The notes under the pieces are model-generated. The model made no database searches. It was not told where the DNA came from and worked only from the letters and a program-made list of their open reading frames with translations. Position numbers and translations under genes: made by a program. A stretch of DNA of 64,000 nt, taken from NCBI GenBank assembly GCA_030141605.1, contig JAQGDQ010000028.1, positions 372,001-436,000 on the forward strand, read 5' to 3'. Of this stretch, positions 30,267 to 64,000 are shown piece after piece; position 1 is the stretch's first letter, and each line of letters opens with the position of its first letter. This DNA is from Tubiluchus corallicola. Taxonomy: Eukaryota; Animalia; Priapulida.

Positions 30267-30834
30267 ACTTTTAAAGCAAAAAACGACGTGACGCCACGCC
30301 GTAAATTACACGTGAAGCAAACTGTAGAACCCGTCTTTTGTAAAAACCGGGTTGGCACACGGACACACACTTACACATCGTCTGCTCTGCAGATCGCAGT
30401 TTGCATGCCAAATTCTGCAAAACCTTAGCACGTGCGACGTAACCTTTGACCCAACACCTGATACAAACAAAAATTAATACGCACTACAGTCTAAAAAATA
30501 AATTTGTTAATAAATGCATCCATTTAAAAAGCAAAGGACTAATTTAGGACACCCAATTATTTTTAGATAAAAAAGTGTTAATTTTATTCATATTTTTTCT
30601 TGCTTTTACACAAGTGGACTATTTTTTCTCATTTTTGTGTTTGACTTCCGGGGTTCCTAGGCACTTCCTGTAAAATCAGCAGAACTTATACTGACTTAGC
30701 TTCATTGCATGCAAACTACTTAAAAGCAAGATTGTTTCAAACTGACAGCAGTTTAATTGAAAACTAGGTGTGACATAAAGATTTCATCAGTCGTGATCAG
30801 CTGTGAATTTTACAGTCATTTATGATAAAGGAGA
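30267..30834. promoter_or_regulatory. Putative bidirectional promoter shared by KMO and CEPT
   Basis: Divergent ATGs only 568 bp apart. CACGTG E-boxes at 30309 and 30429; ETS-type ACTTCCGG (30644) and ACTTCCTG (30663); locally CpG-richer. Confidence 0.6.
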
Positions 30835-31980
30835 ATGAAGATAGAAAGCTTATCTGAGGTGCAATTGAAAAAATTGAAAGAACATAAATACAGTTGCGAA
30901 AATGTATCTATTCTGGATCCATACATGCAGGTGTTCTGGAATGCTGCTATTCAAAAATTTCCATTGTGGTTAGCTCCAAATACGATGACAATTATTGGAC
31001 TAGGTGTTAATATAATTACATCTTTGCTAGTTTTTGGTTACAATCCCGATGGAAAAAGTGACTGTCCAGCATGGGTATATGTCTTTTGTGCTGCTGGACT
31101 GTTTATATATCAAACACTAGATGCATTAGATGGCAAGCAAGCAAGGAGAACAGGATCATCTAGTCCTTTAGGAGAGCTGTTCGATCATGGATGTGATTCT
31201 ATATCTACTGTTTTTGTCACAATTGCAGTCAGCATCACTATGCAGCTAGGGCAGCGACCAGAGGTTTTATTTGCAATGATAATGTGGTCATTGTTTCTTT
31301 TCTACCTAGCTCACTGGACAACATACGTATGTGGAACTTTACGGTTTGGATACATTGATATCACAGAAGGTCAGTTTATGGCAATTGGATCATTTATTGT
31401 AACCGCCATTTTTGGAGCTGCATTCTGGGAAGCTAGAATTCCATTCCTTTATCTACCATTATGGGTCTTACCTGTACTTTTTTCAACAATAGCTGGTGGA
31501 GTAGCTGCACTGACGTGCTTTAACGTCATTTTTACTGGTGGCGTTGGAAAAAACAAATCCACTGTTGCCGATACCAGCGTTTTATTTCCAGCTGTACCAA
31601 TATTATCGGCAATTATTCCAGCTTACATTATTTATTGGAAGTCTCCAAGTCACCTTTACCAAAACCATCCATGTGTGTATTTGCTAGCGTTTGGTTTTGT
31701 GGCAGCTAAGATCACTTGCAGACTTGTAGTAGCTCATATGACAAAAAGCGAGATGGATGCTCTGGACACAGTACTGTGGGGTCCAGCACTGTTGTTTCTC
31801 AACCAATATTTTAATTGTCCAATTAGCGAGCATTTAGTTCTTTTCCTGTGTTTAATTTATTCCATTGTGAATTTAACTATGTACTCGGTGCGTGTTTGTC
31901 GGCAAATTTGTGATTATCTAAATATTTTTTGTTTTACTATTAAAAACAACAAATTACATTCTGCCTCCAATAACGGTTGA
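30835..31980 (+). CDS. CEPT1: Choline/ethanolamine phosphotransferase (CEPT1/CHPT1 family), intronless, 381 aa
   Basis: CDP-alcohol phosphotransferase motif DALDGKQARRTGSSSPLGELFDHGCD, plus LKEHKYS, WLAPN, GGVGKNKSTVA and LVVAHMTKSEM; multiple TM helices. Confidence 0.95.
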   Translation: MKIESLSEVQLKKLKEHKYSCENVSILDPYMQVFWNAAIQKFPLWLAPNTMTIIGLGVNIITSLLVFGYNPDGKSDCPAWVYVFCAAGLFIYQTLDALDGKQARRTGSSSPLGELFDHGCDSISTVFVTIAVSITMQLGQRPEVLFAMIMWSLFLFYLAHWTTYVCGTLRFGYIDITEGQFMAIGSFIVTAIFGAAFWEARIPFLYLPLWVLPVLFSTIAGGVAALTCFNVIFTGGVGKNKSTVADTSVLFPAVPILSAIIPAYIIYWKSPSHLYQNHPCVYLLAFGFVAAKITCRLVVAHMTKSEMDALDTVLWGPALLFLNQYFNCPISEHLVLFLCLIYSIVNLTMYSVRVCRQICDYLNIFCFTIKNNKLHSASNNG

Positions 31981-46000: not shown

Positions 46001-48904
46001 ACTGTTAACAATGCAGGAACAGAAATATGTCTTTTTTTGCATTTTAAATATGAAATGGAGTAAGCTTAGCTTAATAAAGAGATGTAATTAACAACTTATA
46101 TTTGTACATGTTATCTTTCTGCTGATGCTCCAGTATTGAGGGTATAGCAAAAACTGCTTTGCATTCTGCGAGCAGCCAAGATTGTTTTTGCTTGGTTGTT
46201 GAGCAATATCGCATCCTTGCACGGGTACACTGCAGCAGAATTTATGCCAAAGATACTCAGCATAATTAATATGCTATTTAAATAATGTGCTAGCTATGGC
46301 CAGCGATCAGTGGTATTGTGTATTAACCCATGGTCGATAGTTGAACTTCTTATTATGTCAATTGTCTTCTCAATTTAATGTAAATGTTTTCATTCTTTGC
46401 AGCACATTCTTTACCTTGCATACTGCCATCATTATTTTAGTATTGCTTATTATTTATTTATTATTAATTATTTTTGCCAGTTTTATGTGTCAGAGGAGCA
46501 ATAGAGCACTTATGTCAAAGAGCAAATATCCAAGCAGTTAAAGCAATTAAAGTGTAACTAGATTAGCTTCATTGCTCTGCTAACACAGCTCTTGATATTT
46601 GGCAAAAGAGACTGAATTATTGCTACATGTGCCGCAATGGACTACACAATGATATCAGTGATTTTGTAATAATTTATTGGATCTTCAAATGCAAAGTTTG
46701 CTAATGTTATGTGAGGTCAAAGTTTATATCATTCACAATAACAAAACTAGAGTTATAAGTTTGATAATCAAGTCATGTTAGCATACCTGAAAAATTAACT
46801 CACTCTTTCAGATATTATATTCAGTCAGAACTGAAAACACACAGAGCAAATTTCGGGATTTTTGCTGAAAACTTGCCTGGATTACCGTCTGCAATTTCGC
46901 CGAGTAGCACGGGTGGCTACTGGGTTGGGTTTTATGCTATTCGTAGAGCGGAGTGGTTCTCAGCTGTGGACCTGCTGTCAACCAAGACATCTTTATCTAA
47001 AGTATTAAGCAAGGTGGGTAATATTGCATCTCTAATCCGATCATAAGTTTGTCCTGACATGGCTGTCTCCTATAGTAACATTTTCAAATTCAAAAGGTCT
47101 GGACAGTTTTGCGAATCAATTTACAATTAGTCCTGTTTTAATGACTCCATGTTAATAAAGGGAGTTAACAAACATGTCGATAAAAGAAGCCATTCTTAAT
47201 ATGTGGATGTGGAATGATGGGCTGAGTTATTTTTTCAATTTGCAATGTAAAGGCACACGTGTCATTAGAGGTGTCAGTCTTGCAAATTACTACTTATTAA
47301 CTATTTTTGTGCATAGCTTATTTTTGTGGATAGCTAACACTTAAGTGAGTGGATGGCTCACTTGCTTGTGGAACTAGAACATGCTCCAAAAGTGAGCTTT
47401 TTATCACTTTGAATCAGGACCGGCTATACCACTAGCAAACTAGGCAGTTGCCAATTTCTTGAAGTAATTCATTAAGTTTTAAGTTTAGTAGCATAGTGTA
47501 TGTGTAATTTCATAAGTGCACAACACTAATTAAATGAAATGAACAAGTTGCATTATTTTCCTGTTAAAAGGTATGAGTCATACATGCGTCATCGTTGTCG
47601 TCATCATCAGCATCGTCGCCTTATTATTATTTCCTCTTCCCCTTTTTTCTCCCTTTCCTCTGTTTTTCTCCTTGTCATTTGTGGGGCAATCCTCGTGCCA
47701 TCACCTTCCATTTCTTCTTTTCTGGTGACAGCAGGAATTTATTACCCTCCAAGATTTCTCTTTCCTTAGAAAAGAATTTTTATGGATTACCTGCAGTGAT
47801 AGTAACATATCTGTCCAACTAAAATTTAAAATAATTTTGATGTACGTGTAATTCCAAAATGCATGCTGCAGTTACAGTATTTCTTTCTTTGTAACTTTAT
47901 TTGCTGCAATAACGTGTGTACTAAAAACAAACTTTAACCTGTGGCTATAACAGCCCAATTGAAAAGTCTAGTCAAATCCTATGCCACTGCTTTCCTGCAG
48001 CAAAACATTCCATTTTTGCTTTATCTGGTATCCCAAAACAAAATTGGGAGCTTGGTCGTGGAAATGGTTGACCGTTGAGGAGGGGGTCCTAAAAATACTT
48101 TTGCTTAGGGCATCAAATTACCTAGAGCCAATCCTGCTTTGCATTAATTTATCGCACTATTTTCACGTTTGAGCTTCGAGACTTTCCTACACACATTATC
48201 GCTGGCACAGGTGAACTGTGTCTGCTTTCCAAAGGTGTTATTGAGTTGTTACAAACGTTTTGGCTCACTTGATTCTTCACGTGATTTTTTACCATTCAGA
48301 TAAACATTGGGCTTCAGTACTCATAATATACAGACTTTTAAAACGTGCTACTTTTAATACATTGAAAGAACTGTTTGTTTGCTTAATGGATATTGAATTC
48401 TTGTTTAGCTGAGCTTCACATTCACACATCTATTTATGACAAACTAACAGTGAGTCATAAAGTTTCATTTCACGTTTCTTAGCAAATTTTATTTTTCATC
48501 ATTAAGTGTATCAAAAGTTCTGATTGGTCGAATTTTACTAACATTAGCTGCAACACTAGTGGCTGGCATTTCAACGGCAATTCGCATGGGAACATGTACT
48601 CACTCCATAGAACTCAATTGCTGAAATTCTCATTTCAACTTATTTAATGATATCAAGTTCGCGGAAAAGTTGTTTTAAATGGGAAATATTCTTATTTCAG
48701 TTTCTTCCTCGCAGTATGCTTCACTGGTTAGCTTTCCACAAATATGGGTTGGTGGTAAAACTAGACGAAGATGGCAACATTATACACAGTTTACATGATG
48801 CTACGGGTTATACAGTATCCTCAGTACATGCACTACAGGAAGCCGACGGATATTTGTATGTTTTTGATCAAAGCAAAAATTATATTGTAAAAATTAAATT
48901 ATGA
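40012..48904 (+). CDS. APMAP/hemomucin/strictosidine-synthase-like type II membrane beta-propeller protein, divergent (9 coding exons)
   Basis: Exons 40012-40181, 41725-41841, 42336-42442, 42773-42868, 44049-44162, 44404-44566, 45762-45905, 46812-47013, 48701-48904, phase-consistent. N-terminal TM then ESPIAP, LLPNSKL, LDANNGLY, GTIYFT..SSKW, FAENLPGLP...GGYWVG, YGLVVKLDEDGNIIHSLHD. Confidence 0.85.
40640..40900 (-). mobile_element. LINE ORF2 internal fragment in an intron
   Basis: Minus-strand KNFLHFVAAKRKDQTGALPLK resembles the KxFWxYxKxKRKxxxGIxPL segment of CR1-type ORF2. Confidence 0.45.
45417..45504. repeat. Tandem duplication of a ~43-bp unit
   Basis: gcgtgaagt(t/c)agcc(t/c)tgtaagctcgctgacggaaagcaagaat occurs twice in tandem. 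Confidence 0.85.
47415..48136. mobile_element. hAT-type MITE in an APMAP-like intron
   Basis: TIRs CAGGACCGGCT / AGCCAATCCTG (9/11); 8-bp flanks CTTTGAAT / CTTTGCAT (7/8). Confidence 0.65.
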
Positions 48905-49149
48905 TATCAAAATTAATGTTAAATAAATTTTTCTATTTGTACTACAATAATAATTATTTAGCATTTTTCTGAGTTGTTTTGTTAAAAAAGTATAATTTGT
49001 CATTGATTGAGGCATTATTTGGCAGATGCAATAAGAGTAATTCTGAAAAAGGTTCGGGCAATTCTCTCAATTGCTCAGAGTAAGAATGAAATTCTAAAAA
49101 TGCTTAATAAATCTACCTACAATCAAACCTTCTACTTCGGGACTCCAGA

Positions 49150-49950
49150 AAGTTGGCATTACGCGATTTTGGTATTATAATGAGGTCATTAATGCATACA
49201 TCTACGAAAATGTAGACATTTTGTTTTGCCAAAATTTAGGCATTAAGCGAGGTTGGTGGTTATAAAGAAGGGCATTCTAAGGACATTTAACTGTATATTA
49301 TTAATTCTCCGGGTGCACTTATATCTGTCTTGATATGTATGTGCATATCATACCTAATTTTCTCGGCTACCACTGAACCATTTGCGTCAAATTATATATC
49401 AAACGAATATATCTGACCCTCCTGGAGTCCCACAAGGAGCTCATTTCTCGATCTGGGCGGACTACAAGGAATGAGGAAGCGAAGTCCACAAGAATTCCTT
49501 TCGGCATTGTCTTTCCTGGACCCACCTACCAGATTTGTTCCACATTTTCATGGTGCACCATATAGAAAAAATGCAGTACTTCACGAGGGTCTTTGAAGTA
49601 GTTTTATAATTCTGAAAGACTCTGAACTGGGCACCATGATGATGAGGGTCTCTTTTACAAACACCAATATAACAAAATCAACTTGCTAAAATAAGTACCA
49701 AAGTACGACAACTGAAGTTATTTTTAGTTATCTCTAAAACCAGTAATAATGTGATTTATGTTAATTACTCTTAATTAGTGCTTTGATTAATATGTTTCTA
49801 GACTCATCATCCTCTATAAATGCAATCGAGATCAAGAAACAACAATAACAATTGAACATTCCTTTATTCAATTTTTCTATTACAAGCACAAGCAAAAATT
49901 TCACGCTATTATCACAGGACGAACTTTCTACATATTCACATCATTTTGTT
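49150..49950 (+). mobile_element. Highly degenerate LINE RT relic left of the viral array
   Basis: PGVPQGAH remnant (RT GVPQGS motif) at ~49420-49445; the rest is fragmentary and the boundaries are approximate. Confidence 0.4.
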
Positions 49951-50353
49951 CATTTAATAACTAATATTAACAACTTATGTTAGAATTGTGTAGTTCTTAA
50001 CAAGGTTATAACCTTTCTTAGACATGGTAATTGACTAAAAAAATTTAGTTGATAGAAAGATATTTGAGAAATGTTATAACAATATGACAAGCGCAAATGG
50101 TATAGAAACATGCTACCAATTTAGACTGAATTTGCAATATAAGTCTTGACCAAATCCAGTTCAATTACACCCTGCAAATAAGACGCAAATCTGCAGCAAA
50201 GACTCGCAAAACAACAAACTTTCAAATCTTATTTTGCATGACCACTGTCCTTTAGACAATTTATATCAATAGCCATCACGTTGAACTATGTCAGTGTTTA
50301 AGAATTTTTGTTTTAGAGCTAGAACAAGTACAGAGCCCAGTTTCGAGGTCAAA

Positions 50354-51364
50354 ATGGAATATTATAGTTTTATAGTCTTTTTGAGCCTACTGGCACTCAG
50401 CCAGGAGACCATCATAAGCGTCAACAGCATCATTCCTCAATTGTCGCAAGACATAATATACAAGCACCAAGACGCCTTGGCGACCTATGGAATCACAATA
50501 ACGGAGCCAAAACCAATCGGTTACCAGGTTGCACAGTCCTTCAAGGTAGTCAAGATTGAAATGTCTAAGGCTTGGAATGTACACTACAACCTTTTCCAAG
50601 ACAAAAGCAAAGACAACTCTTCGAATTACACAAACAGGAAAAAGAGATTTTTGGGCTTGATCATGTCAACTGCAGCCATGGCAGAAGCGACGGCCGCCTT
50701 GGCCCTTGGGGCACCAAATCGTGCTGAAATTAACTCGTTAAATGCAAAAATGAGTGAGTTAAGAAAAAACCAGGGAATTATAGCTCATGAGGTGCAGATT
50801 GCAAACAAAGAAATTGGAATCTTGGGGCACAACTTGGAGGAATTAGAAAGAGTAGTGGGAAAATTACATACTGAGTTATACAATCTGATGTTAGCTCACT
50901 CCAATGATATGAAAAGGCTCCATGACTACCTGAACTCCATCAGATACGGGCACGGTTTACAGTCTATAACTTCCACAAAAATAGACCCTTTATTGATTAG
51001 TCCGACACAGTTTGATTCTCTAATGTCAAACAAAGAAAATAATATCCCATTATCGTATGGGGCTAGCAGGGCGATCGTTATCAGATCCGAACCACAACAA
51101 TTATGGATGTTGATCAACGTGAGGGAGATTGTTCAGGTTCCAGGGAAAGTACATGTCACAACCCAAAATGTACCAATCAACCAGAATGTGGGAAGGAACA
51201 AATGCTGCTCACCAATCGAGTGCAGAAATACTTGGGAGTATCATGACATCAGGTCAGGTGGTATCGGAAAAATCCGGTCACCCCCTTGTTGGCTACATTC
51301 TCAGCCTGGTGGATTCTTGGTTATTTCTGTTATCAGAGTGGCCAAAGTGGAAGAGAATAGATAA
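50354..51364 (+). CDS. Endogenous viral class I fusion (F-like) glycoprotein, N-terminal half, copy 1 (336 aa, no TM anchor)
   Basis: Signal peptide MEYYSFIVFLSLLALSQE, sequons NSS and NYT, furin site RKKR, then a hydrophobic fusion peptide FLGLIMSTAAMAEATAALALG and a long heptad repeat, followed by a Cys-containing segment. The frame ends just past the junction with L. Confidence 0.75.
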   Translation: MEYYSFIVFLSLLALSQETIISVNSIIPQLSQDIIYKHQDALATYGITITEPKPIGYQVAQSFKVVKIEMSKAWNVHYNLFQDKSKDNSSNYTNRKKRFLGLIMSTAAMAEATAALALGAPNRAEINSLNAKMSELRKNQGIIAHEVQIANKEIGILGHNLEELERVVGKLHTELYNLMLAHSNDMKRLHDYLNSIRYGHGLQSITSTKIDPLLISPTQFDSLMSNKENNIPLSYGASRAIVIRSEPQQLWMLINVREIVQVPGKVHVTTQNVPINQNVGRNKCCSPIECRNTWEYHDIRSGGIGKIRSPPCWLHSQPGGFLVISVIRVAKVEENR

Positions 51365-52763
51365 TGTTGACCTACTAGCTCTAGCAATCACACCCAGTGA
51401 TTTCTCCTTCGTTCCATTCCTACCACCTACGTTTTTCTGTTACCATGGCCAACAAGATCGACTGACCCATGGATTAAGCTTCATGTTCTATGTTCTTAAA
51501 AACTGTGTTGATGAAACCAATCCTATCCACAAAATTGTGGCACGGCTCCTTTCGGTGAAAACTGTTGCTCCTGAGACTCTACAACTACTAACCTTAATAA
51601 AAGATCCCTGTGCTCTCAATTTTGAGCAACCAATGGCTTTGTCTACTCTATTAAAACAGACAGTACAACAAAAAGTTATTCCCATGGTCAAAAACGACAG
51701 AATTAAGATGTATTTAGATATCCTGGAAGAAGATGCTTTTCCAGGAGTGGTTAAGTATTACACTTCTATCGTTCCCTACCCAGCTAGAATTATAAACGCA
51801 ATTTTTACTTGTACTGTGATGGGTACTGCCATCAACTTCCTTGATTTTTTTGCCCAACAATCAACTTTACTGAATATGCTAGAAAAAGAAGACAAACTCA
51901 GACTAGAGACTCGGATCAACAAGGTTGAGAGGAATCTGATCAGCAGTGTCCTTAATCGACTCAAGACTCCTCAAAGTAAAAGCTGGGAAGAATTATTAAT
52001 AGAATTAAGTGGGAGCTCATCGCTTTGTTCTTATCTGATGGCAGAAGGGTTAAGAGACTCTACATGGGGCTTTAAAATAGTAGATGTGACTGCCCCTTGT
52101 CCCTGGGATCAACTCTCCCCAATATCAGTCGAGCTAGCTCAAATGAGAAAAGATGTTATTAGTTTAAGATACTCTGATTATCCAGACAAAACTGCAGTGG
52201 GGCCTTATAGAATGGTCGTAGGAAGTAGGACGAAAGAACGGATCAAGCCTTTAGTAATAGCTCCCAATATCCCAAAGGGGCTGACAAGAAGGCAATCTGT
52301 TGCCATTTTAATAAAACTCCTTTGTTGGATGGCTGACAAGCCTTTAATCGTCAAGCTCATTCAAGATGCACTTTTTGAATTGGGGGCAACCAATTATGAG
52401 GCACTAATTCCTAAGGGTTACACACTATCTCTAGGGTCAACCGCTCATCGACTAGAAGCTGCAGATAGGAAGTCATCGGTCTACTTTAACCTCAGAGACA
52501 CAGTTGCCAGCCATATAGTAATTAATACAGATAGAGCGACTCTTTATAGGGGAGAAGGGGCAGACTACACTAACAGACTACTTTTTGAGCCTACTGGCAC
52601 TCAGCCAGGAGACCATCATAAGCGTCAACAGCATCATTCCTCAATTGTCGCAAGACATAATATACAAGCACCAAGACGCCTTGGCGACCTATGGAATCAT
52701 AATAACGGAGCCAAAACCAATCGGTTACCAGGTTGCACAGTCCTTCAAGGTAGTCAAGATTGA
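51129..52763 (+). pseudogene. Endogenous negative-strand RNA virus L protein fragment, copy 1 (L-like part ~51330-52571)
   Basis: CR IV motifs (P..F...HG..DRLT, KDPCALN, VKN, PYPARII) and capping/PRNTase motifs A (CS..AE.LR..TWG..I..VT.P.P.DQ), B (GSRT), C (W) and D (HR). The RdRp GDN core is absent. Confidence 0.85.
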
Positions 52764-53569
52764 AATGTCTAAGGCTTGGAATGTACACTACAACCTTTTC
52801 CAAGACAAAAGCAAAGACAACTCTTCGAATTACACAAACAGGAAAAAGAGATTTTTGGGCTTGATCATGTCAACTGCAGCCATGGCAGAAGCGACGGCCG
52901 CCTTGGCCCTTGGGGCAACAAATCGTGCTGAAATTAACTCGTTAAATGCAAAAATGAGTGAGTTAAGAAAAAAACCAGGGAATTATAGCTCATGAGGTGC
53001 AGATTGCAAACAAAGAAATTGGAATCTTGGGGCACAACTTGGAGGAATTAGAAAGAGTAGTGGGAAAATTAAATACTGAGTTATACAATCTGATGTTAGC
53101 TCACTCCAATGATATGAAAAGGCTCCATGACTACCTGAACTCCATCAGATACGGGCACGGTTTACAGTCTATAACTTCCACAAAAATAGACCCTTTATTG
53201 ATTAGTCCGACACAGTTTGATTCTCTAATGTCAAACAAAGAAAATAATATCCCATTATCGTATGGGGCTAGCAGGGCGATCGTTATCAGATCCGAACCAC
53301 AACAATTATGGATGTTGATCAACGTGAGGGAGATTGTCTGAGTTCCAGGAAAGTACATGTCACAACCCAAAATGTACCAATCAACCAGAATGTGGAAGCG
53401 AAACAAATGCTGCTCACCAATCGAGTGCAGAAATACTTGGGAGTATCATGACATCAGGTCAGGTGGTATCGGAAAAATCCGGTCACCCCCTTGTTGGCTA
53501 CATTCTCAGCCTGGTGGATTCTTGGTTATTTCTGTTATCAGAGTGGCCAAAGTGGAAGAGAATAGATAA
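52581..53569 (+). pseudogene. Glycoprotein fragment, copy 2 (no ATG; frameshifted)
   Basis: Extra A in the A-run near 52970 and further changes near 53336-53402. Confidence 0.75.
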
Positions 53570-54968
53570 TGTTGACCTACTAGCTCTAGCAATCACACCC
53601 AGTGATTTCTCCTTCGTTCCATTCCTACCACCTACGTTTTTCTGTTACCATGGCCAACAAGATCGACTGACCCATGGATTAAGCTTCATGTTCTATGTTC
53701 TTAAAAACTGTGTTGATGAAACCAATCCTATCCACAAAATTGTGGCACGGCTCCTTTCGGTGAAAACTGTTGCTCCTGAGACTCTACAACTACTAACCTT
53801 AATAAAAGATCCCTGTGCTCTCAATTTTGAGCAACCAATGGCTTTGTCTACTCTATTAAGACAGACAGTACAACAAAAAGTTATTCCCATGGTCAAAAAC
53901 GACAGAATTAAGATGTATTTAGATATCCTGGAAGAAGATGCTTTTCCAGGAGTGGTTAAGTATTACACTTCTATCGTTCCCTACCCAGCTAGAATTATAA
54001 ACGCAATTTTTACTTGTACTGTGATGGGTACTGCCATCAACTTCCTTGATTTTTTTGCCCAACAATCAACTTTACTGAATATGCTAGAAAAAGAAGACAA
54101 ACTCAGACTAGAGACTCGGATCAACAAGGTTGAGAGGAATCTGATCAGCAGTGTCCTTAATCGACTCAAGACTCCTCAAAGTAAAAGCTGGGAAGAATTA
54201 TTAATAGAATTAAGTGGGAGCTCATCGCTTTGTTCTTATCTGATGGCAGAAGGGTTAAGAGACTCTACATGGGGCTTTAAAATAGTAGATGTGACTGCCC
54301 CTTGTCCCTGGGATCAACTCTCCCCAATATCAGTCGAGCTAGCTCAAATTAGAAAAGATGTTATTAGTTTAAGATACTCTGATTATCCAGACAAAACTGC
54401 AGTGGGGCCTTATAGAATGGTCGTAGGAAGTAGGACGAAAGAACGGATCAAGCCTTTAGTAATAGCTCCCAATATCCCAAAGGGGCTGACAAGAAGGCAA
54501 TCTGTTGCCATCTTAATAAAACTCCTTTGTTGGATGGCTGACAAGCCTTTAATCGTCAAGCTCATTCAAGATGCACTTTTTGAATTGGGGGCAACCAATT
54601 ATGAGGCACTAATTCCTAAGGGTTACACACTATCTCTAGGGTCAACCGCTCATCGACTAGAAGCTGCAGATAGGAAGTCATCGGTCTACTCTAACCTCAG
54701 AGACACAGTTGCCAGCCATATAGTAATTAATACAGATAGAGCGACTCTTTATAGGGGAGAAGGGGCAGACTACACTAACAGACTACTTTTTGAGCCTACT
54801 GGCACTCAGCCAGGAGACCATCATAAGCGTCAACAGCATCATTCCTCAATTGTCGCAAGACATAATATACAAGCACCAAGACGCCTTGGCGACCTATGGA
54901 ATCATAATAACGGAGCCAAAACCAATCGGTTACCAGGTTGCACAGTCCTTCAAGGTAGTCAAGATTGA
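53334..54968 (+). pseudogene. L fragment, copy 2 (L-like part ~53535-54776)
   Basis: Near-identical to copy 1; frame open. Confidence 0.85.
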
Positions 54969-55764
54969 AATGTCTAAGGCTTGAATGGGCAACCTTTTCC
55001 AAGACAAAAAGCAAAGACAACTCTTCGAATTACACAAACAGGAAAGAGATTTTTGGGCTTGATCATGTCAAACTGCAGCCATGGCAGAAGGATGGCCGCC
55101 TATTCCCTTAGCAACAAATCGTGCTGAAATTAACTCGTTAAATGCAAAAATGAGTGAGTTAAGAAAAAACCAGGGAATTATAGCTCATGAGGTGCAGATT
55201 GCAAACAAAGAAATTGGAATCTTGGGGCACAACTTGGAGGAATTAGAAAGAGTAGTGGGAAAATTAAATACTGAGTTATACAATCTGATGTTAGCTCACT
55301 CCAATGATATGAAAAGGCTCCATGACTACCTGAACTCCATCAGATACGGGCACGGTTTACAGTCTATAACTTCCACAAAAATAGACCCTTTATTGATTAG
55401 TCCGACACAGTTTGATTCTCTAATGTCAAACAAAGAAAATAATATCCCATTATCGTATGGGGCTAGCAGGGCGATCGTTATCAGATCCGAACCACAACAA
55501 TTATGGATGTTGATCAACGTGAGGGAGATTGTTCAGGTTCCAGGGAAAGTACATGTCACAACCCAAAATGTACCAATCAACCAGAATGTGGGAAGGAACA
55601 AATGCTGCTCACCAATCGAGTGCAGAAATACTTGGGAGTATCATGACATCAGGTCAGGTGGTATCGGAAAAATCCGGTCACCCCCTTGTTGGCTACATTC
55701 TCAGCCTGGTGGATTCTTGGTTATTTCTGTTATCAGAGTGGCCAAAGTGGAAGAGAATAGATAA
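54786..55764 (+). pseudogene. Glycoprotein fragment, copy 3 (disrupted)
   Basis: Cluster of indels at 54980-55110 destroys the furin site and fusion peptide. Confidence 0.75.
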
Positions 55765-57163
55765 TGTTGACCTACTAGCTCTAGCAATCACACCCAGTGA
55801 TTTCTCCTTCGTTCCATTCCTACCACCTACGTTTTTCTGTTACCATGGCCAACAAGATCGACTGACCCATGGATTAAGCTTCATGTTCTATGTTCTTAAA
55901 AACTGTGTTGATGAAACCAATCCTATCCACAAAATTGTGGCACGGCTCCTTTCGGTGAAAACTGTTGCTCCTGAGACTCTACAACTACTAACCTTAATAA
56001 AAGATCCCTGTGCTCTCAATTTTGAGCAACCAATGGCTTTGTCTACTCTATTAAGACAGACAGTACAACAAAAAGTTATTCCCATGGTCAAAAACGACAG
56101 AATTAAGATGTATTTAGATATCCTGGAAGAAGATGCTTTTCCAGGAGTGGTTAAGTATTACACTTCTATCGTTCCCTACCCAGCTAGAATTATAAACGCA
56201 ATTTTTACTTGTACTGTGATGGGTACTGCCATCAACTTCCTTGATTTTTTTGCCCAACAATCAACTTTACTGAATATGCTAGAAAAAGAAGACAAACTCA
56301 GACTAGAGACTCGGATCAACAAGGTTGAGAGGAATCTGATCAGCAGTGTCCTTAATCGACTCAAGACTCCTCAAAGTAAAAGCTGGGAAGAATTATTAAT
56401 AGAATTAAGTGGGAGCTCATCGCTTTGTTCTTATCTGATGGCAGAAGGGTTAAGAGACTCTACATGGGGCTTTAAAATAGTAGATGTGACTGCCCCTTGT
56501 CCCTGGGATCAACTCTCCCCAATATCAGTCGAGCTAGCTCAAATTAGAAAAGATGTTATTAGTTTAAGATACTCTGATTATCCAGACAAAACTGCAGTGG
56601 GGCCTTATAGAATGGTCGTAGGAAGTAGGACGAAAGAACGGATCAAGCCTTTAGTAATAGCTCCCAATATCCCAAAGGGGCTGACAAGAAGGCAATCTGT
56701 TGCCATTTTAATAAAACTCCTTTGTTGGATGGCTGACAAGCCTTTAATCGTCAAGCTCATTCAAGATGCACTTTTTGAATTGGGGGCAACCAATTATGAG
56801 GCACTAATTCCTAAGGGTTACACATTATCTCTAGGGTCAACCGCTCATCGACTAGAAGCTGCAGATAGGAAGTCATCGGTCTACTTTAACCTCAGAGACA
56901 CAGTTGCCAGCCATATAGTAATTAATACAGATAGAGCGACTCTTTATAGGGGAGAAGGGGCAGACTACACTAACAGACTACTTTTTGAGCCTACTGGCAC
57001 TCAGCCAGGAGACCATCATAAGCGTCAACAGCATCATTCCTCAATTGTCGCAAGACATAATATACAAGCACCAAGACGCCTTGGCGACCTATGGAATCAT
57101 AATAACGGAGCCAAAACCAATCGGTTACCAGGTTGCACAGTCCTTCAAGGTAGTCAAGATTGA
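55529..57163 (+). pseudogene. L fragment, copy 3 (L-like part ~55730-56971)
   Basis: Near-identical to copy 1; frame open. Confidence 0.85.
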
Positions 57164-57968
57164 AATGTCTAAGGCTTGGAATGTACACTACAACCTTTTC
57201 CAAGACAAAAGCAAAGACAACTCTTCGAATTACACAAACAGGAAAAAGAGATTTTTGGGCTTGATCATGTCAACTGCAGCCATGGCAGAAGCGACGGCCG
57301 CCTTGGCCCTTGGGGCAACAAATCGTGCTGAAATTAACTCGTTAAATGCAAAAATGAGTGAGTTAAGAAAAAACCAGGGAATTATAGCTCATGAGGTGCA
57401 GATTGCAAACAAAGAAATTGGAATCTTGGGGCACAACTTGGAGGAATTAGAAAGAGTAGTGGGAAAATTAAATACTGAGTTATACAATCTGATGTTAGCT
57501 CACTCCAATGATATGAAAAGGCTCCATGACTACCTGAACTCCATCAGATACGGGCACGGTTTACAGTCTATAACTTCCACAAAAATAGACCCTTTATTGA
57601 TTAGTCCGACACAGTTTGATTCTCTAATGTCAAACAAAGAAAATAATATCCCATTATCGTATGGGGCTAGCAGGGCGATCGTTATCAGATCCGAACCACA
57701 ACACTTATGGATGTTGATCAACGTGAGGGAGATTGTTCAGGTTCCAGGGAAAGTACATGTCACAACCCAAAATGTACCAATCAACCAGAATGTGGGAAGG
57801 AACAAATGCTGCTCACCAATCGAGTGCAGAAATACTTGGGAGTATCATGACATCAGGTCAGGTGGTATCGGAAAAATCCGGTCACCCCCTTGTTGGCTAC
57901 ATTCTCAGCCTGGTGGATTCTTGGTTATTTCTGTTATCAGAGTGGCCAAAGTGGAAGAGAATAGATAA
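56981..57968 (+). pseudogene. Glycoprotein fragment, copy 4 (open frame, native ATG missing)
   Basis: ORF 56985..57968 keeps RKKR/FLG but begins inside the signal peptide. Confidence 0.75.
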
Positions 57969-59367
57969 TGTTGACCTACTAGCTCTAGCAATCACACCCA
58001 GTGATTTCTCCTTCGTTCCATTCCTACCACCTACGTTTTTCTGTTACCATGGCCAACAAGATCGACTGACCCATGGATTAAGCTTCATGTTCTATGTTCT
58101 TAAAAACTGTGTTGATGAAACCAATCCTATCCACAAAATTGTGGCACGGCTCCTTTCGGTGAAAACTGTTGCTCCTGAGACTCTACAACTACTAACCTTA
58201 ATAAAAGATCCCTGTGCTCTCAATTTTGAGCAACCAATGGCTTTGTCTACTCTATTAAAACAGACAGTACAACAAAAAGTTATTCCCATGGTCAAAAACG
58301 ACAGAATTAAGATGTATTTAGATATCCTGGAAGAAGATGCTTTTCCAGGAGTGGTTAAGTATTACACTTCTATCGTTCCCTACCCAGCTAGAATTATAAA
58401 CGCAATTTTTACTTGTACTGTGATGGGTACTGCCATCAACTTCCTTGATTTTTTTGCCCAACAATCAACTTTACTGAATATGCTAGAAAAAGAAGACAAA
58501 CTCAGACTAGAGACTCGGATCAACAAGGTTGAGAGGAATCTGATCAGCAGTGTCCTTAATCGACTCAAGACTCCTCAAAGTAAAAGCTGGGAAGAATTAT
58601 TAATAGAATTAAGTGGGAGCTCATCGCTGTGTTCTTATCTGATGGCAGAAGGGTTAAGAGACTCTACATGGGGCTTTAAAATAGTAGATGTGACTGCCCC
58701 TTGTCCCTGGGATCAACTCTCCCCAATATCAGTCGAGCTAGCTCAAATTAGAAAAGATGTTATTAGTTTAAGATACTCTGATTATCCAGACAAAACTGCA
58801 GGGGGGCCTTATAGAATGGTCGTAGGAAGTAGGACGAAAGAACGGATCAAGCCTTTAGTAATAGCTCCCAATATCCCAAAGGGGCTGACAAGAAGGCAAT
58901 CTGTTGCCATTTTAATAAAACTCCTTTGTTGGATGGCTGACAAGCCTTTAATCGTCAAGCTCATTCAAGATGCACTTTTTGAATTGGGGGCAACCAATTA
59001 TGAGGCACTAATTCCTAAGGGTTACACATTATCTCTAGGGTCAACCGCTCATCGACTAGAAGCTGCAGATAGGAAGTCATCGGTCTACTTTAACCTCAGA
59101 GACACAGTTGCCAGCCATATAGTAATTAATACAGATAGAGCGACTCTTTATAGGGGAGAAGGGGCAGACTACACTAACAGACTACTTTTTGAGCCTACTG
59201 GCACTCAGCCAGGAGACCATCATAAGCGTCAACAGCATCATTCCTCAAGTGTCGCAAGACATAATATACAAGCACCAAGACGCCTTGGCGACCTATGGAA
59301 TCATAATAACGGAGCCAAAACCAATCGGTTACCAGGTTGCACAGTCCTTCAAGGTAGTCAAGATTGA
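57733..59367 (+). pseudogene. L fragment, copy 4 (L-like part ~57934-59175)
   Basis: Near-identical to copy 1; frame open. Confidence 0.85.
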
Positions 59368-60172
59368 AATGTCTAAGGCTTGGAATGTACACTACAACCT
59401 TTTCCAAGACAAAAGCAAAGACAACTCTTCGAATTACACAAACAGGAAAAAGAGATTTTTGGGCTTGATCATGTCAACTGCAGCCATGGCAGAAGCGACG
59501 GCCGCCTTGGCCCTTGGGGCAACAAATCGTGCTGAAATTAACTCGTTAAATGCAAAAATGAGTGAGTTAAGAAAAAACCAGGGAATTATAGCTCATGAGG
59601 TGCAGATTGCAAACAAAGAAATTGGAATCTTGGGGCACAACTTGGAGGACTTAGAAAGAGTAGTGGGAAAATTAAATACTGAGTTATACAATCTGATGTT
59701 AGCTCACTCCAATGATATGAAAAGGCTCCATGACTACCTGAACTCCATCAGATACGGGCACGGTTTACAGTCTATAACTTCCACAAAAATAGACCCTTTA
59801 TTGATTAGTCCGACACAGTTTGATTCTCTAATGTCAAACAAAGAAAATAATATCCCATTATCGTATGGGGCTAGCAGGGCGATCGTTATCAGATCCGAAC
59901 CACAACAATTATGGATGTTGATCAACGTGAGGGAGATTGTTCAGGTTCCAGGGAAAGTACATGTCACAACCCAAAATGTACCAATCAACCAGAATGTGGG
60001 AAGGAACAAATGCTGCTCACCAATCGAGTGCAGAAATACTTGGGAGTATCATGACATCAGGTCAGGTGGTATCGGAAAAATCCGGTCACCCCCTTGTTGG
60101 CTACATTCTCAGCCTGGTGGATTCTTGGTTATTTCTGTTATCAGAGTGGCCAAAGTGGAAGAGAATAGATAA
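59185..60172 (+). pseudogene. Glycoprotein fragment, copy 5 (open frame, native ATG missing)
   Basis: ORF 59189..60172. Confidence 0.75.
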
Positions 60173-61571
60173 TGTTGACCTACTAGCTCTAGCAATCACA
60201 CCCAGTGATTTCTCCTTCGTTCCATTCCTACCACCTACGTTTTTCTGTTACCATGGCCAACAAGATCGACTGACCCATGGATTAAGCTTCATGTTCTATG
60301 TTCTTAAAAACTGTGTTGATGAAACCAATCCTATCCACAAAATTGTGGCACGGCTCCTTTCGGTGAAAACTGTTGCTCCTGAGACTCTACAACTACTAAC
60401 CTTAATAAAAGATCCCTGTGCTCTCAATTTTGAGCAACCAATGGCTTTGTCTACTCTATTAAGACAGACAGTACAACAAAAAGTTATTCCCACGGTCAAA
60501 AACGACAGAATTAAGATGTATTTAGATATCCTGGAAGAAGATGCTTTTCCAGGAGTGGTTAAGTATTACACTTCTATCGTTCCCTACCCAGCTAGAATTA
60601 TAAACGCAATTTTTACTTGTACTGTGATGGGTACTGCCATCAACTTCCTTGATTTTTTTGCCCAACAATCAACTTTACTGAATATGCTAGAAAAAGAAGA
60701 CAAACTCAGACTAGAGACTCGGATCAACAAGGTTGAGAGGAATCTGATCAGCAGTGTCCTTAATCGACTCAAGACTCCTCAAAGTAAAAGCTGGGAAGAA
60801 TTATTAATAGAATTAAGTGGGAGCTCATCGCTTTGTTCTTATCTGATGGCAGAAGGGTTAAGAGACTCTACATGGGGCTTTAAAATAGTAGATGTGACTG
60901 CCCCTTGTCCCTGGGATCAACTCTCCCCAATATCAGTCGAGCTAGCTCAAATTAGAAAAGATGTTATTAGTTTAAGATACTCTGATTATCCAGACAAAAC
61001 TGCAGTGGGGCCTTATAGAATGGTCGTAGGAAGTAGGACGAAAGAACGGATCAAGCCTTTAGTAATAGCTCCCAATATCCCAAAGGGGCTGACAAGAAGG
61101 CAATCTGTTGCCATTTTAATAAAACTCCTTTGTTGGATGGCTGACAAGCCTTTAATCGTCAAGCTCATTCAAGATGCACTTTTTGAATTGGGGGCAACCA
61201 ATTATGAGGCACTAATTCCTAAGGGTTACACACTATCTCTAGGGTCAACCGCTCATCGACTAGAAGCTGCAGATAGGAAGTCATCGGTCTACTTTAACCT
61301 CAGAGACACAGTTGCCAGCCATATAGTAATTAATACAGATAGAGCGACTCTTTATAGGGGAGAAGGGGCAGACTACACTAACAGACTACTTTTTGAGCCT
61401 ACTGGCACTCAGCCAGGAGACCATCATAAGCGTCAACAGCATCATTCCTCAATTGTCGCAAGACATAATATACAAGCACCAAGACGCCTTGGCGACCTAT
61501 GGAATCATAATAACGGAGCCAAAACCAATCGGTTACCAGGTTGCACAGTCCTTCAAGGTAGTCAAGATTGA
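59937..61571 (+). pseudogene. L fragment, copy 5 (L-like part ~60138-61379)
   Basis: Near-identical to copy 1; frame open. Confidence 0.85.
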
Positions 61572-62377
61572 AATGTCTAAGGCTTGGAATGTACACTACA
61601 ACCTTTTCCAAGACAAAAGCAAAGACAACTCTTCGAATTACACAAACAGGAAAAAGAGATTTTTGGGCTTGATCATGTCAACTGCAGCCATGGCAGAAGC
61701 GACGGCCGCCTTGGCCCTTGGGGCAACAAATCGTGCTGAAATTAACTCGTTAAATGCAAAAATGAGTGAGTTAAGAAAAAAACCAGGGAATTATAGCTCA
61801 TGAGGTGCAGATTGCAAACAAAGAAATTGGAATCTTGGGGCACAACTTGGAGGAATTAGAAAGAGTAGTGGGAAAATTAAATACTGAGTTATACAATCTG
61901 ATGTTAGCTCACTCCAATGATATGAAAAGGCTCCATGACTACCTGAACTCCATCAGATACGGGCACGGTTTACAGTCTATAACTTCCACAAAAATAGACC
62001 CTTTATTGATTAGTCCGACACAGTTTGATTCTCTAATGTCAAACAAAGAAAATAATATCCCATTATCGTATGGGGCTAGCAGGGCGATCGTTATCAGATC
62101 CGAACCACAACAATTATGGATGTTGATCAACGTGAGGGAGATTGTTCAGGTTCCAGGGAAAGTACATGTCACAACCCAAAATGTACCAATCAACCAGAAT
62201 GTGGGAAGGAACAAATGCTGCTCACCAATCGAGTGCAGAAATACTTGGGAGTATCATGACATCAGGTCAGGTGGTATCGGAAAAATCCGGTCACCCCCTT
62301 GTTGGCTACATTCTCAGCCTGGTGGATTCTTGGTTATTTCTGTTATCAGAGTGGCCAAAGTGGAAGAGAATAGATAA
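61389..62377 (+). pseudogene. Glycoprotein fragment, copy 6 (frameshifted)
   Basis: Same extra A in the A-run (~61780) as copy 2. Confidence 0.75.
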
Positions 62378-63680
62378 TGTTGACCTACTAGCTCTAGCAA
62401 TCACACCCAGTGATTTCTCCTTCGTTCCATTCCTACCACCTACGTTTTTCTGTTACCATGGCCAACAAGATCGACTGACCCATGGATTAAGCTTCATGTT
62501 CTATGTTCTTAAAAACTGTGTTGATGAAACCAATCCTATCCACAAAATTGTGGCACGGCTCCTTTCGGTGAAAACTGTTGCTCCTGAGACTCTACAACTA
62601 CTAACCTTAATAAAAGATCCCTGTGCTCTCAATTTTGAGCAACCAATGGCTTTGTCTACTCTATTAAGACAGACAGTACAACAAAAAGTTATTCCCATGG
62701 TCAAAAACGACAGAATTAAGATGTATTTAGATATCCTGGAAGAAGATGCTTTTCCAGGAGTGGTTAAGTATTACACTTCTATCGTTCCCTACCCAGCTAG
62801 AATTATAAACGCAATTTTTACTTGTACTGTGATGGGTACTGCCATCAACTTCCTTGATTTTTTTGCCCAACAATCAACTTTACTGAATATGCTACAAAAA
62901 GAAGACAAACTCAGACTAGAGACTCGGATCAACAAGGTTGAGAGGAATCTGATCAGCAGTGTCCTTAATCGACTCAAGACTCCTCAAAGTAAAAGCTGGG
63001 AAGAATTATTAATAGAATTAAGTGGGAGCTCATCGCTTTGTTCTTATCTGATGGCAGAAGGGTTAAGAGACTCTACATGGGGCTTTAAAATAGTAGATGT
63101 GACTGCCCCTTGTCCCTGGGGTCAACTCTCCCCAATATCAGTCGAGCTAGCTCAAATTAGAAAAGATGTTATTAGTTTAAGATACTCTGATTATCCAGAC
63201 AAAACTGCAGTGGGGCCTTATAGAATGGTCGTAGGAAGTAGGACGAAAGAACGGATCAAGCCTTTAGTAATAGCTCCCAATATCCCAAAGGGGCTGACAA
63301 GAAGGCAATCTGTTGCCATTTTAATAAAACTCCTTTGTTGGATGGCTGACAAGCCTTTAATCGTCAAGCTCATTCAAGATGCACTTTTTGAATTGGGGGC
63401 AACCAATTATGAGGCACTAATTCCTAAGGGTTACACACTATCTCTAGGGTCAACCGCTCATCGACTAGAAGCTGCAGATAGGAAGTCATCGGTCTACTTT
63501 AACCTCAGAGACACAGTTGCCAGCCATATAGTAATTAATACAGATAGAGCGACTCTTTATAGGGGAGAAGGGGCAGACTACACTTTATGTTTCCAAGAGG
63601 TCTTCTGTGCTTTAATGACAATGAATGCTGTATCTAAATATCACCTAGTATCTAACCCTCACCAAGCACTACCAAACTGA
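62142..63680 (+). pseudogene. L fragment, copy 6, with native continuation (L-like part ~62343-63670)
   Basis: Past the repeat end it reads DYTLCFQEVFCAL, supplying the F-Q of PRNTase motif E that copies 1-5 lack. Confidence 0.85.
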
Positions 63681-64000
63681 CCAGGTCAGTTACTCTTGTC
63701 CAGCTCCAAGTGATTTACATGCGGTCAACACAAAAAGAGAAGCACTGAAAAATGTATCAGCCGTTTTTGAACCTCTTGGATGGATTAGTCCTTTATTAGT
63801 CGAAGCAAAGAGATTCATAGCAACATTATGGAAAGAACATGTCGATTGGGACACTGTGTTCACCCAAGAGCAGCAAGTTCAATGGGAAAATGTTGCAAAC
63901 ACCTTATCATCAATTTACAGTCTGAGGATTCCCAGATACACTGAAACAGGTGATTTTAGCAAAGTAGATATTGTGTCATTCAGTGACAGCTCTTCATGGT
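63673..64000 (+). mobile_element. BEL/Pao LTR retrotransposon pol fragment (RT-RNase H connector, Peptidase_A17-type region), continuing past the window
   Basis: Open frame not in the ORF track: TDQVSY...TKREALKNVSAVFEPLGWISPLLVEAKRFIATLWKEHVDWD...QW...LRIPRY...IVSFSDSS. It matches the Pao pattern TKRxxLxxxxxxFDPLGxxxP...AK...LW....WD...IPR...FxDAS. Confidence 0.85.

What the first reader, a model, noticed from the sequence alone, without database searches (positions are those of the whole stretch)
50354..63680. Six-fold tandem array of a chimeric negative-strand RNA virus EVE (fusion glycoprotein + L capping domain)
Seen: a 13.2-kb head-to-tail array of ~2204-bp, nearly identical units in an animal gene neighbourhood; the L-like frame has no stop in any copy. 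Established: R..W/G.T.P, GxxT, W, HR and FQ are the PRNTase (capping) motifs A-E of Mononegavirales-type L proteins, and such viruses have no DNA stage. Inference: a very recent non-retroviral integration amplified into a satellite-like array. It may serve as a template for antiviral piRNA/siRNA or as a dosage-amplified viral decoy. Tandem amplification of a two-gene EVE is unusual.
Basis: partly seen in the sequence, partly recalled or inferred. Interest (0 to 1): 0.92.

Follow-up and report, generated by a model that had tools for sequence, protein, structure and literature searches.

The report
Amplified RNA-virus fossil in priapulid worm
A marine worm genome (likely a priapulid) carries at least six near-identical head-to-tail copies of a 2.2-kb piece of an undescribed negative-strand RNA virus joined to a retrotransposon fragment, likely captured by that retrotransposon's reverse transcriptase and then duplicated in place; the process is known from mosquitoes, the virus lineage looks new, and no function is shown.

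Summary
The array is real. Six 2.2-kb units are at least 98.8% identical, and the same tandem junction is in public sequence of two samples from two studies. Each unit joins the first ~260 codons of an F-type fusion protein (weak evidence) to a Mononegavirales-type L fragment (Pfam E 1e-13).

Corrections: capping motif E is only in copy 6. Only copy 1 has the F start. Contig depth suggests about 9-16 copies, not six. The open L frames fit recency (7 of 10 changes non-synonymous).

Best model: reverse-transcriptase template switching made one Pao-L-F chimera, one duplication made the junction, and unequal exchange multiplied it.

A host gene groups with Priapulus. L is at most ~29% identical to its relatives and falls in no sampled family. 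Tandem RNA-virus EVE arrays have precedent (Aedes, yeast STORM). No piRNA or decoy evidence. Neither array end is bridged in public contigs.

The parts
50322..50353 (+). Possible 5' untranslated leader of the F-like gene; left viral boundary not fixed
   Evidence: Weak. A GAACAA hexamer at 50322 resembles the artovirus gene-start GAAACAA (PMC6394706 passages) but is one base short; such hexamers occur 0.074 per 100 nt in the flank. The single-copy flank contig of X1 stops at 50324.
50354..50376 (+). Unique (non-repeated) 5' end of the F-like ORF: ATG and start of a hydrophobic leader
   Evidence: Sequence; present only before copy 1
50354..51364 (+). Copy-1 ORF, 336 aa: ~260 aa of F-like class I fusion protein (leader, RKKR site at aa 95, hydrophobic peptide, long helix; cut before any membrane anchor) plus ~76 aa read out of frame through L
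   Evidence: Pfam Fusion_gly E 0.006, below cut-off; 5 of 6 PDB hits are paramyxovirus F but E 1.2-1.9; Atlas top cluster Fusion_gly 0.95, 203 shared features; no Cys in 260 aa
51123..51135 (+). F-to-L junction inside each unit (copy-1 coordinates)
   Evidence: L similarity to P0121 starts at the first codon after the stop at 51120-51122; bridged by contigs of X1, X2, X3
51123..52571 (+). L fragment of copy 1: end of the RdRp domain plus capping (PRNTase) domain up to just before motif E
   Evidence: Pfam, PDB best hit E 1e-8, 25% to Beihai rhabdo-like virus 3 L residues 718-1204
50377..52580 (+). Unit 1 (2195 bp + 9-bp junction insert)
52572..52581 (+). Tandem junction with a short insert that repeats 8 bases from 13 nt upstream; identical in all five junctions
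   Evidence: seen in contigs of X1, X2, X3
52581..54785 (+). Unit 2 (F frame broken; clustered differences near 53338-53401)
54786..56980 (+). Unit 3 (F frame broken; clustered differences near 54984-55110)
56981..59184 (+). Unit 4
59185..61388 (+). Unit 5
61389..63584 (+). Unit 6 (F frame broken; no junction insert)
63585..63665 (+). Unique in-frame continuation of L with motif E (FQ)
   Evidence: not covered by any contig in X1, X2, X3 or X5
63666..64000 (+). Internal pol segment of a young multi-copy Bel/Pao LTR retrotransposon, same strand as the viral ORFs, 5' part missing; runs off the window
   Evidence: Pfam Peptidase_A17 E 6e-21; other copies in X1, X2, X3 align from 63666 and carry different sequence before it; 21 of 24 X1 contigs laid on 63400-64000 (array end plus Pao) are 95% or more identical

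Best explanation
This is a chromosomal fossil of an undescribed negative-strand RNA virus, likely made when a Bel/Pao retrotransposon's reverse transcriptase switched template onto viral plus-sense RNA, and likely multiplied afterwards by ordinary tandem duplication with no function required. Shown: order [single-copy host DNA]-[F 5' part]-[L fragment]-[Pao pol], all on one strand; unique viral ends on both sides of the repeats; one junction type; the junction in two samples. Inferred step 1 (~0.75): during Pao minus-strand synthesis the enzyme left the Pao RNA at 63666, copied ~1.5 kb of L backwards, then continued on F and ran to about the 5' end of the F gene. The F-L join came either from a second switch or from a deletion-type defective viral RNA, since F-then-L is the normal gene order. 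Inferred step 2 (~0.8): the chimera integrated in the germ line 1.4 kb behind a host gene. Inferred step 3 (~0.75): one repair or fork-restart event duplicated the inner 2195 bp and left a short templated insert (pattern recalled for polymerase-theta end joining). Inferred step 4 (~0.7): unequal exchange, or a circle of that unit re-entering its own locus, raised the number to about 9-16. The array most likely drifts neutrally. It cannot make a polymerase, and only copy 1 could make a secreted, truncated F.
For: Pao pol abuts L directly at 63666, same strand; the Pao family is multi-copy and near-identical in X1-X3. Same-orientation LTR/EVE pairs and the template-switch model are reported for Aedes (10.1101/127498 passages; PMC5497376 passages). 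Viral DNA made from defective genomes as chimeras with LTR elements is reported in flies (PMC5857290 passages). Unique F start and unique L extension bracket the repeats and 5 of 5 junctions are identical; an 8-base copy from 13 nt upstream sits in the insert, chance about 0.005 by a rough count. Junction in S1 and S2, and X3 differs from the window at flank positions such as 46179 and 47312-47364, so probably another individual. Clean copies differ by 5-8 substitutions in 2.2 kb. No sign of purifying selection: 7 of 10 L changes non-synonymous against 77% neutral. F and L parts have equal contig depth in X1 (2750-2920) and form one unbranched circular contig in X3, so F is not an extra gene of the multi-copy Pao family.
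Against: No listed contig bridges either end of the array: 63585-63665 is uncovered in X1, X2, X3, and bin arithmetic implies 50325-50376 is uncovered in X1. Linkage to host DNA and to Pao therefore rests on the window's assembly alone. No Pao LTR or 5' Pao part was found on the left flank, and the Pao 3' end lies outside the window. Some copy differences are probably sequencing error (31 of 48 variable columns are clustered in copies 2 and 3; isolated substitutions are 7 transitions to 9 transversions), so the selection test has little power (n = 10). X1, X2 and X4 may be the sample the window was assembled from. X3's type is not on record.
Confidence: 0.7

Rival explanations
1. The array is a working antiviral memory locus: copies are transcribed into piRNA/siRNA precursors, or copy 1 makes a secreted truncated F that acts as a decoy, and copy number is selected.
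For: EVEs next to LTR elements give antisense piRNAs in Aedes. Present at high copy in two samples. Copy 1 has an uninterrupted ATG-leader-RKKR-fusion-peptide frame with no membrane anchor.
Against: No purifying selection visible. Five of six copies lack the F start. The left 50 kb is an ordinary gene neighbourhood (SPRTN, a CDP-alcohol phosphotransferase), not a dense transposon cluster.
Confidence: 0.15
2. The F-like piece is not from the same virus as L but from an F-type env of a retrotransposon, joined to L in the same template-switch series.
For: F-type env with furin site and fusion peptide is widespread in metazoan gypsy elements and known in Pao (Roo) (PMC13524379 passages). Atlas rank 2 (0.94) is a mostly eukaryotic Baculo_F cluster. 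No F relative was found at all. The passages read on one artovirus G do not call it F-like.
Against: Atlas ranks 1 and 3 are Negarnaviricota Fusion_gly clusters; PDB hits are paramyxovirus F; F precedes L as in mononegaviral gene order; no extra F depth or F-only contigs were seen (tables cut); GC of F and L is the same (0.413, 0.416; Pao 0.406, so not discriminating).
Confidence: 0.2
3. Most of the depth comes from an extrachromosomal 2204-bp DNA circle (or the assembler unrolled a circle), with one linear parent copy in the chromosome.
For: X3 gives one closed 2234-letter contig and no bridge to flanks. Circular viral DNA from defective genomes exists in insects.
Against: A tandem array gives the same closed contig. 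The same junction and a similar depth ratio occur in two samples from two studies. Some variants are shared between copies (1 and 4; 3 and 4).
Confidence: 0.07
4. The virus integrated by end joining or LINE activity, independent of Pao, and the Pao adjacency is a later deletion or insertion.
For: No Pao sequence found on the left; the Pao is 5'-truncated.
Against: Direct join inside pol, same strand, young family, no poly(A) tail at the L end. An LTR element that inserted later would begin with an LTR (established).
Confidence: 0.12

Closest known systems
Non-retroviral EVEs (NIRVS/nrEVEs) of Aedes next to Ty3/gypsy and Bel/Pao elements (10.1101/127498; PMC5497376)
   Same: Fragment of a negative-strand virus in the same orientation as an adjacent LTR element; Pao linked to Chuviridae EVEs; duplication after one integration; template switching proposed.
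   Different: Host is probably a priapulid; gene-rich site rather than a shown piRNA cluster; no small-RNA evidence; exact 2204-bp periodicity with one junction type.
Tandem arrays of <1%-divergent flavivirus EVEs in Aedes (PMC9752770, section 8, 'data not shown')
   Same: Recent intra-germline tandem amplification of an RNA-virus EVE.
   Different: Negative-strand donor, two-gene chimeric unit, junctions and retrotransposon join resolved to the base. The same paper reports a flavivirid EVE in Priapulus caudatus.
STORM, tandem totivirus-derived array of Scheffersomyces yeasts (PMC13756089, abstract)
   Same: Tandem array of non-retroviral viral ORFs; cap-related viral function in the unit.
   Different: STORM is at least 15 My old, diverged, expressed and under selection; this array is near-identical, truncated and shows no selection.
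LTR-retrotransposon/defective-viral-genome chimeric vDNA of flies and mosquitoes (PMC5857290)
   Same: Discontinuous viral pieces joined to LTR-element sequence, some in the coding region.
   Different: That is transient, somatic and from positive-strand viruses; this one appears inherited and amplified.
L proteins of Artoviridae and Nyamiviridae (Berhavirus)
   Same: Best score: Beihai rhabdo-like virus 3, 26%, E 8e-27. In trees, sister to the artovirus clade with support 95, 96 and 90.
   Different: Long branch outside both; berhavirus grouping rejected (AU p 0.0013), bornavirus p 0.02, chuvirus-like not rejected (p 0.21). The glycoprotein looks F-type.
Pao elements carrying a chuvirus-like glycoprotein in mosquitoes (Dezordi 2020, as cited in PMC13524379 passages)
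   Same: Pao joined to a negative-strand-virus glycoprotein.
   Different: There a gB-type gene is part of the element; here a truncated F-type piece lies upstream of a 5'-truncated pol with L between, and does not travel with the other Pao copies.

Membership tests
Non-retroviral EVE (Monjiviricetes) | Homology to an RNA-virus-only protein | tested here: met
   Two L Pfam families above gathering; 229 hits at E<=0.001; all 19 named ones among the 30 looked up are negative-strand virus proteins, 17 named polymerase/L and 2 'hypothetical'
Non-retroviral EVE (Monjiviricetes) | Present as DNA | tested here: met
   In the assembly and in runs guessed to be DNA (X1, X2, X4) at 10-16 times flank depth
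Non-retroviral EVE (Monjiviricetes) | Physically joined to host chromosome | tested here: inconclusive
   Joined in the window; no bridging contig listed at either end
Non-retroviral EVE (Monjiviricetes) | Inherited (more than one individual) | tested here: inconclusive
   Same unit and junction in S1 and S2, whose flank alleles differ; X5, same species label, shows neither flank words nor array
PRNTase (capping) domain of L | Motifs A-E (definitions recalled; conservation counted here) | tested here: met
   R311 94/123, W315 95/123, G367 123/123, T370 123/123, W402 113/123, H442 121/123, R443 114/123, F486 97/123, Q487 108/123. Two deviations (D for G in A, V for aromatic in B); E only in copy 6
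Artoviridae | L falls inside the family clade | tested here: not met
   Sister to, not inside, the clade; long branch
Nyamiviridae, genus Berhavirus | L monophyletic with the genus | tested here: not met
   AU p 0.0013 under LG+G4 on 28 rows, long-branch caveat
Jingchuvirales | L monophyletic with chuvirus-like L | tested here: inconclusive
   Not in the best trees, but AU p 0.21
Paramyxovirus-type F (class I fusion protein) | Leader, basic cleavage site, hydrophobic fusion peptide, heptad helix | tested here: met
   Sequence, RKKR at aa 95, predicted helix 123-197 in a low-confidence model, Atlas 0.95
Paramyxovirus-type F (class I fusion protein) | Significant family match and F2-F1 cysteines (cysteine pattern recalled) | tested here: not met
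   Pfam 15.3 bits against cut-off 29.8; no Cys in 260 aa
Paramyxovirus-type F (class I fusion protein) | Fold; second heptad and membrane anchor | not testable with these tools
   Model pLDDT 44 without an alignment; the C-terminal half is absent from the unit
Bel/Pao LTR retrotransposon (right flank) | Pao pol domain | tested here: met
   Peptidase_A17 E 6e-21
Bel/Pao LTR retrotransposon (right flank) | Integrase, PPT, LTR, target-site duplication | not testable with these tools
   Window ends 335 bp into the element; no genome held
piRNA-producing EVE | 24-30-nt, 1U-biased antisense RNAs | not testable with these tools
   No small-RNA data were available

The most novel reading that the evidence does not exclude
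A priapulid is caught in the act of building antiviral memory: a Pao element captured a defective F-L RNA of a family-level new negative-strand virus that pairs an arto-like polymerase with a paramyxovirus-style class I fusion protein, and the host has amplified it to 9-16 copies as a selected small-RNA source or secreted fusion decoy. The virus-lineage half alone (new deep lineage, F and L from one virus) has a probability of about 0.6; the probability given is for the whole statement, including function.
Probability: 0.12. Interest if true: 0.8.

Novelty: new member of a known kind. Interest (0 to 1): 0.45.

Why it matters
The locus records, nearly base by base, the steps usually only inferred for non-retroviral EVEs: a retrotransposon-virus join, an internal F-L join, one duplication with a templated insert, and amplification. 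It points to a recent infection of a probable priapulid, a phylum with almost no known viruses, by a deep Monjiviricetes lineage that may carry a class I F-type glycoprotein in an invertebrate host. That bears on where paramyxovirus-type fusion proteins come from. Its youth and likely copy-number variation would make 'is EVE amplification neutral or selected?' testable outside arthropods. The mechanism itself is not new, and no function is shown.

Tried and rejected
No genome is held for the window, so other copies, the Pao 3' half and an empty site could not be searched. Word-based protein searches found nothing for F (0 of 5891 candidates) or L (0 of 7996); both covered longer proteins only, so this is weak. 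No relative of L in IMG/VR contigs; no F match in phage records. The single-sequence F model was too poor to use (pLDDT 44), so no fold search was run. No RNA holder listed; this says nothing about expression. Uncovered stretches at both array ends may come from graph cleaning or filtering and are not read as proof of mis-assembly. P0246, a hit with 8 stretches, is an unrelated repetitive protein and was left out of the trees; of the other 149 listed hits, the 123 of 1200 aa or more were kept, then 43 and 27 of these for the smaller trees. The first tree run timed out and the careful tree did not finish (the quick mixture tree was used). Rejected: open L frames as a sign of selection; an L-F fusion protein across the junction (F follows in another frame); F as env of the adjacent multi-copy Pao family (no extra depth). 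A second Atlas query did not complete. Earlier findings of the scan held nothing relevant. Literature searches listed no paper on a mononegaviral EVE in a priapulid or on an F-L tandem unit; the library is open-access only and supplements were not read.

Full report
1. Observation. Units start at 50377, 52581, 54786, 56981, 59185 and 61389, and copies 2-6 are 98.8-99.6% identical to copy 1. Among the four clean copies (1, 4, 5, 6) pairs differ by 5-8 substitutions in 2.2 kb; pairs with copies 2 or 3 differ by 11-19 substitutions plus indels. Of 48 variable columns, 31 are clustered in copies 2 and 3 and look like unpolished long-read error; 17 are isolated. All five internal junctions are identical. 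GC is 0.40-0.43 over the array against about 0.33 in the left flank.

2. Public sequence data. Four of six listed runs hold the stretch, from two samples in two studies. The tandem junction, with its 9-base insert, is in contigs of X1 and X2 (sample S1) and X3 (sample S2), and in X3 the whole unit is one unbranched 2234-letter contig. X3 differs from the window at several flank positions, so it is probably another individual; its library type is not on record. Single-contig depth of unit over flank is 15-16 in X1, 11-13 in X2, 10-11 in X4 and 9-17 in X3. The tool warns that depth is no copy number, and S1 may be the source of the assembly, so I take only that six is probably too few. Against the reading: no listed contig covers the unique L extension 63585-63665 in X1, X2 or X3, and bin arithmetic leaves no room for a contig over 50325-50376 in X1. 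Short low-depth links next to a high-depth repeat can be removed in contig cleaning (my inference), but linkage to the chromosome rests on the window alone.

3. The L part. It matches Mononeg_mRNAcap (E 1.1e-13) and the last quarter of Mononeg_RNA_pol (profile 798-1063 of 1068, E 1.5e-10). The best solved-structure hits are 1711-1756-aa L polymerases, E 1e-8 (I recognise them as Borna disease virus L from memory, the output does not name the virus). The capping motifs are conserved against 123 relatives, with two deviations, and motif E lies only in copy 6 (motif definitions recalled). The fragment has no GDN motif and no gene start, so it cannot be a polymerase. Of 229 hits none reaches 1e-30; identities among the 149 L-like listed hits are 20-29%. 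The best is Beihai rhabdo-like virus 3, but three trees put the fragment on a long branch as sister to the artovirus clade (support 95, 96, 90). AU tests reject a berhavirus grouping (p 0.0013) and weakly a bornavirus one (p 0.02), but not a chuvirus-like one (p 0.21). It is a deep Monjiviricetes lineage whose family is undecided.

4. The F part. Copy 1 has an ATG at 50354, a hydrophobic leader, RKKR at residue 95, a hydrophobic peptide and a long predicted helix. Support for an F-type class I fusogen is consistent but weak: Pfam E 0.006, below cut-off; 5 of 6 PDB hits are paramyxovirus F at E 1.2-1.9; the Atlas top cluster is viral Fusion_gly at 0.95. Against close membership: no cysteine in 260 residues and no sequence relative. 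F-type env genes are common in animal gypsy elements (PMC13524379 passages) and the Atlas second hit is such a eukaryote-rich cluster, so a retroelement origin stays open (~0.2). Equal depth of F and L, and the normal gene order, favour one virus. L similarity begins right after the stop at 51120-51122, which fixes the F-L join at about 51123-51135. The F frame is broken in copies 2, 3 and 6; copies 2-6 lack the start.

5. Ends of the array. On the left, at least 23 bp of F are unique, preceded by single-copy DNA at flank depth; a weak gene-start look-alike sits at 50322. On the right, L continues 81 bp in frame and then meets a Bel/Pao pol frame on the same strand (Peptidase_A17 E 6e-21). Other copies of this Pao in X1, X2 and X3 align from exactly 63666 and carry other sequence before it, which I infer is their normal upstream pol. 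Their depth is about 4-6 times the flank in X1 and identity is mostly 95% or more, so the family is young. The structure is therefore A-(B)n-C-Pao, with A and C viral. The B-B junction holds an insert whose last 8 bases repeat 8 bases 13 nt upstream (rough chance 0.005).

6. Host. The window holds a gypsy element, SPRTN, a CDP-alcohol phosphotransferase and, ending 1.4 kb before the EVE, a beta-propeller exon (APMAP-like from recall). The phosphotransferase is 68% identical to Priapulus caudatus and at most 58% to the other 119 listed hits, and groups with it at support 100 among 26 rows. One gene only: the host is likely a priapulid or another scalidophoran.

7. Mechanism. Most likely (0.7 overall), Pao reverse transcriptase, copying its RNA from the 3' end, switched at 63666 to viral plus-sense RNA, copied L backwards, continued on F (second switch, or a deletion-type defective RNA) and stopped near the F 5' end. 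The chimera integrated in the germ line. One repair event then duplicated the inner 2195 bp, and unequal exchange or circle re-entry multiplied it. The polarity, the join inside pol and the single junction type are shown; the order of events is inferred. Same-orientation LTR/EVE pairs and template switching are reported for Aedes (10.1101/127498 passages; PMC5497376 passages), and LTR/defective-genome chimeras for flies (PMC5857290 passages). Templated inserts as a polymerase-theta signature are recalled.

8. Function. None is shown. Seven of 10 isolated L changes are non-synonymous against 77% expected, and no stop in 10 changes has P 0.61; the test is weak and some changes may be errors. A small-RNA or decoy role is possible (~0.15) but untested.

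9. Novelty. Tandem amplification of RNA-virus EVEs is in print: Aedes flavivirus EVEs (PMC9752770, passages and section 8; that paper also lists a flavivirid EVE in Priapulus caudatus) and yeast STORM (PMC13756089, abstract). Also read: PMC10010136 (whole text), PMC6394706 (passages) and 10.1101/2024.12.15.628590 (passages), which treats class I fusion proteins among mononegaviruses as going with the vertebrate-infecting paramyxo- and pneumoviruses. Ten searches listed no mononegaviral EVE from a priapulid; no supplements were read, and these may list such EVEs. Verdict: a real, unusually well-resolved new member of a known kind, whose main news is the virus lineage and host. Interest 0.45.

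Noticed in passing
window 167-3981 (+): Ty3/gypsy-type element with RT, RNase H and integrase in long open frames (E 2e-24 to 1e-12); looks young.
   Followed up: partly
window 30829-31980 (+): Choline/ethanolamine phosphotransferase in a single 383-aa open frame with no intron; may be a retrogene. Used as the host marker.
   Followed up: partly
window 6571-13596 (+): SPRTN (Spartan) gene exons: SprT-like, zinc-binding and UBZ domains.
   Followed up: partly
window 48611-48904 (+): Last exon of a six-bladed beta-propeller gene (APMAP/strictosidine-synthase-like from recall), same strand and 1.4 kb upstream of the EVE; read-through would give sense transcripts.
   Followed up: partly
window 50760-50769 and the same site in each unit: A motif identical to an artovirus gene-end signal (TAAG followed by an A run) lies inside the F frame; the A run differs in length in copies 2 and 6. 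Homopolymer error or chance are both possible.
   Followed up: no
window 50324: The single-copy flank contig of X1 ends here with 11 unaligned letters (record 4): adapter tip or the start of an empty-site allele; unresolved.
   Followed up: partly
window 8958-9185 and 11484-11897; 5459-5984 and 26834-27380: Inverted repeats 2.5 kb apart (96% over 100 bp), and a dispersed inverted pair (72% over 550 bp); probably DNA-transposon remnants.
   Followed up: no
window 47390-48130 and 49040-49275: Short multi-copy interspersed repeats in the left flank (raised contig depth, many loose ends).
   Followed up: no
window 21467-21790 (+): DUF4371 fragment (E 2e-13), typical of hAT-type transposase remnants (recalled).
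   Followed up: no
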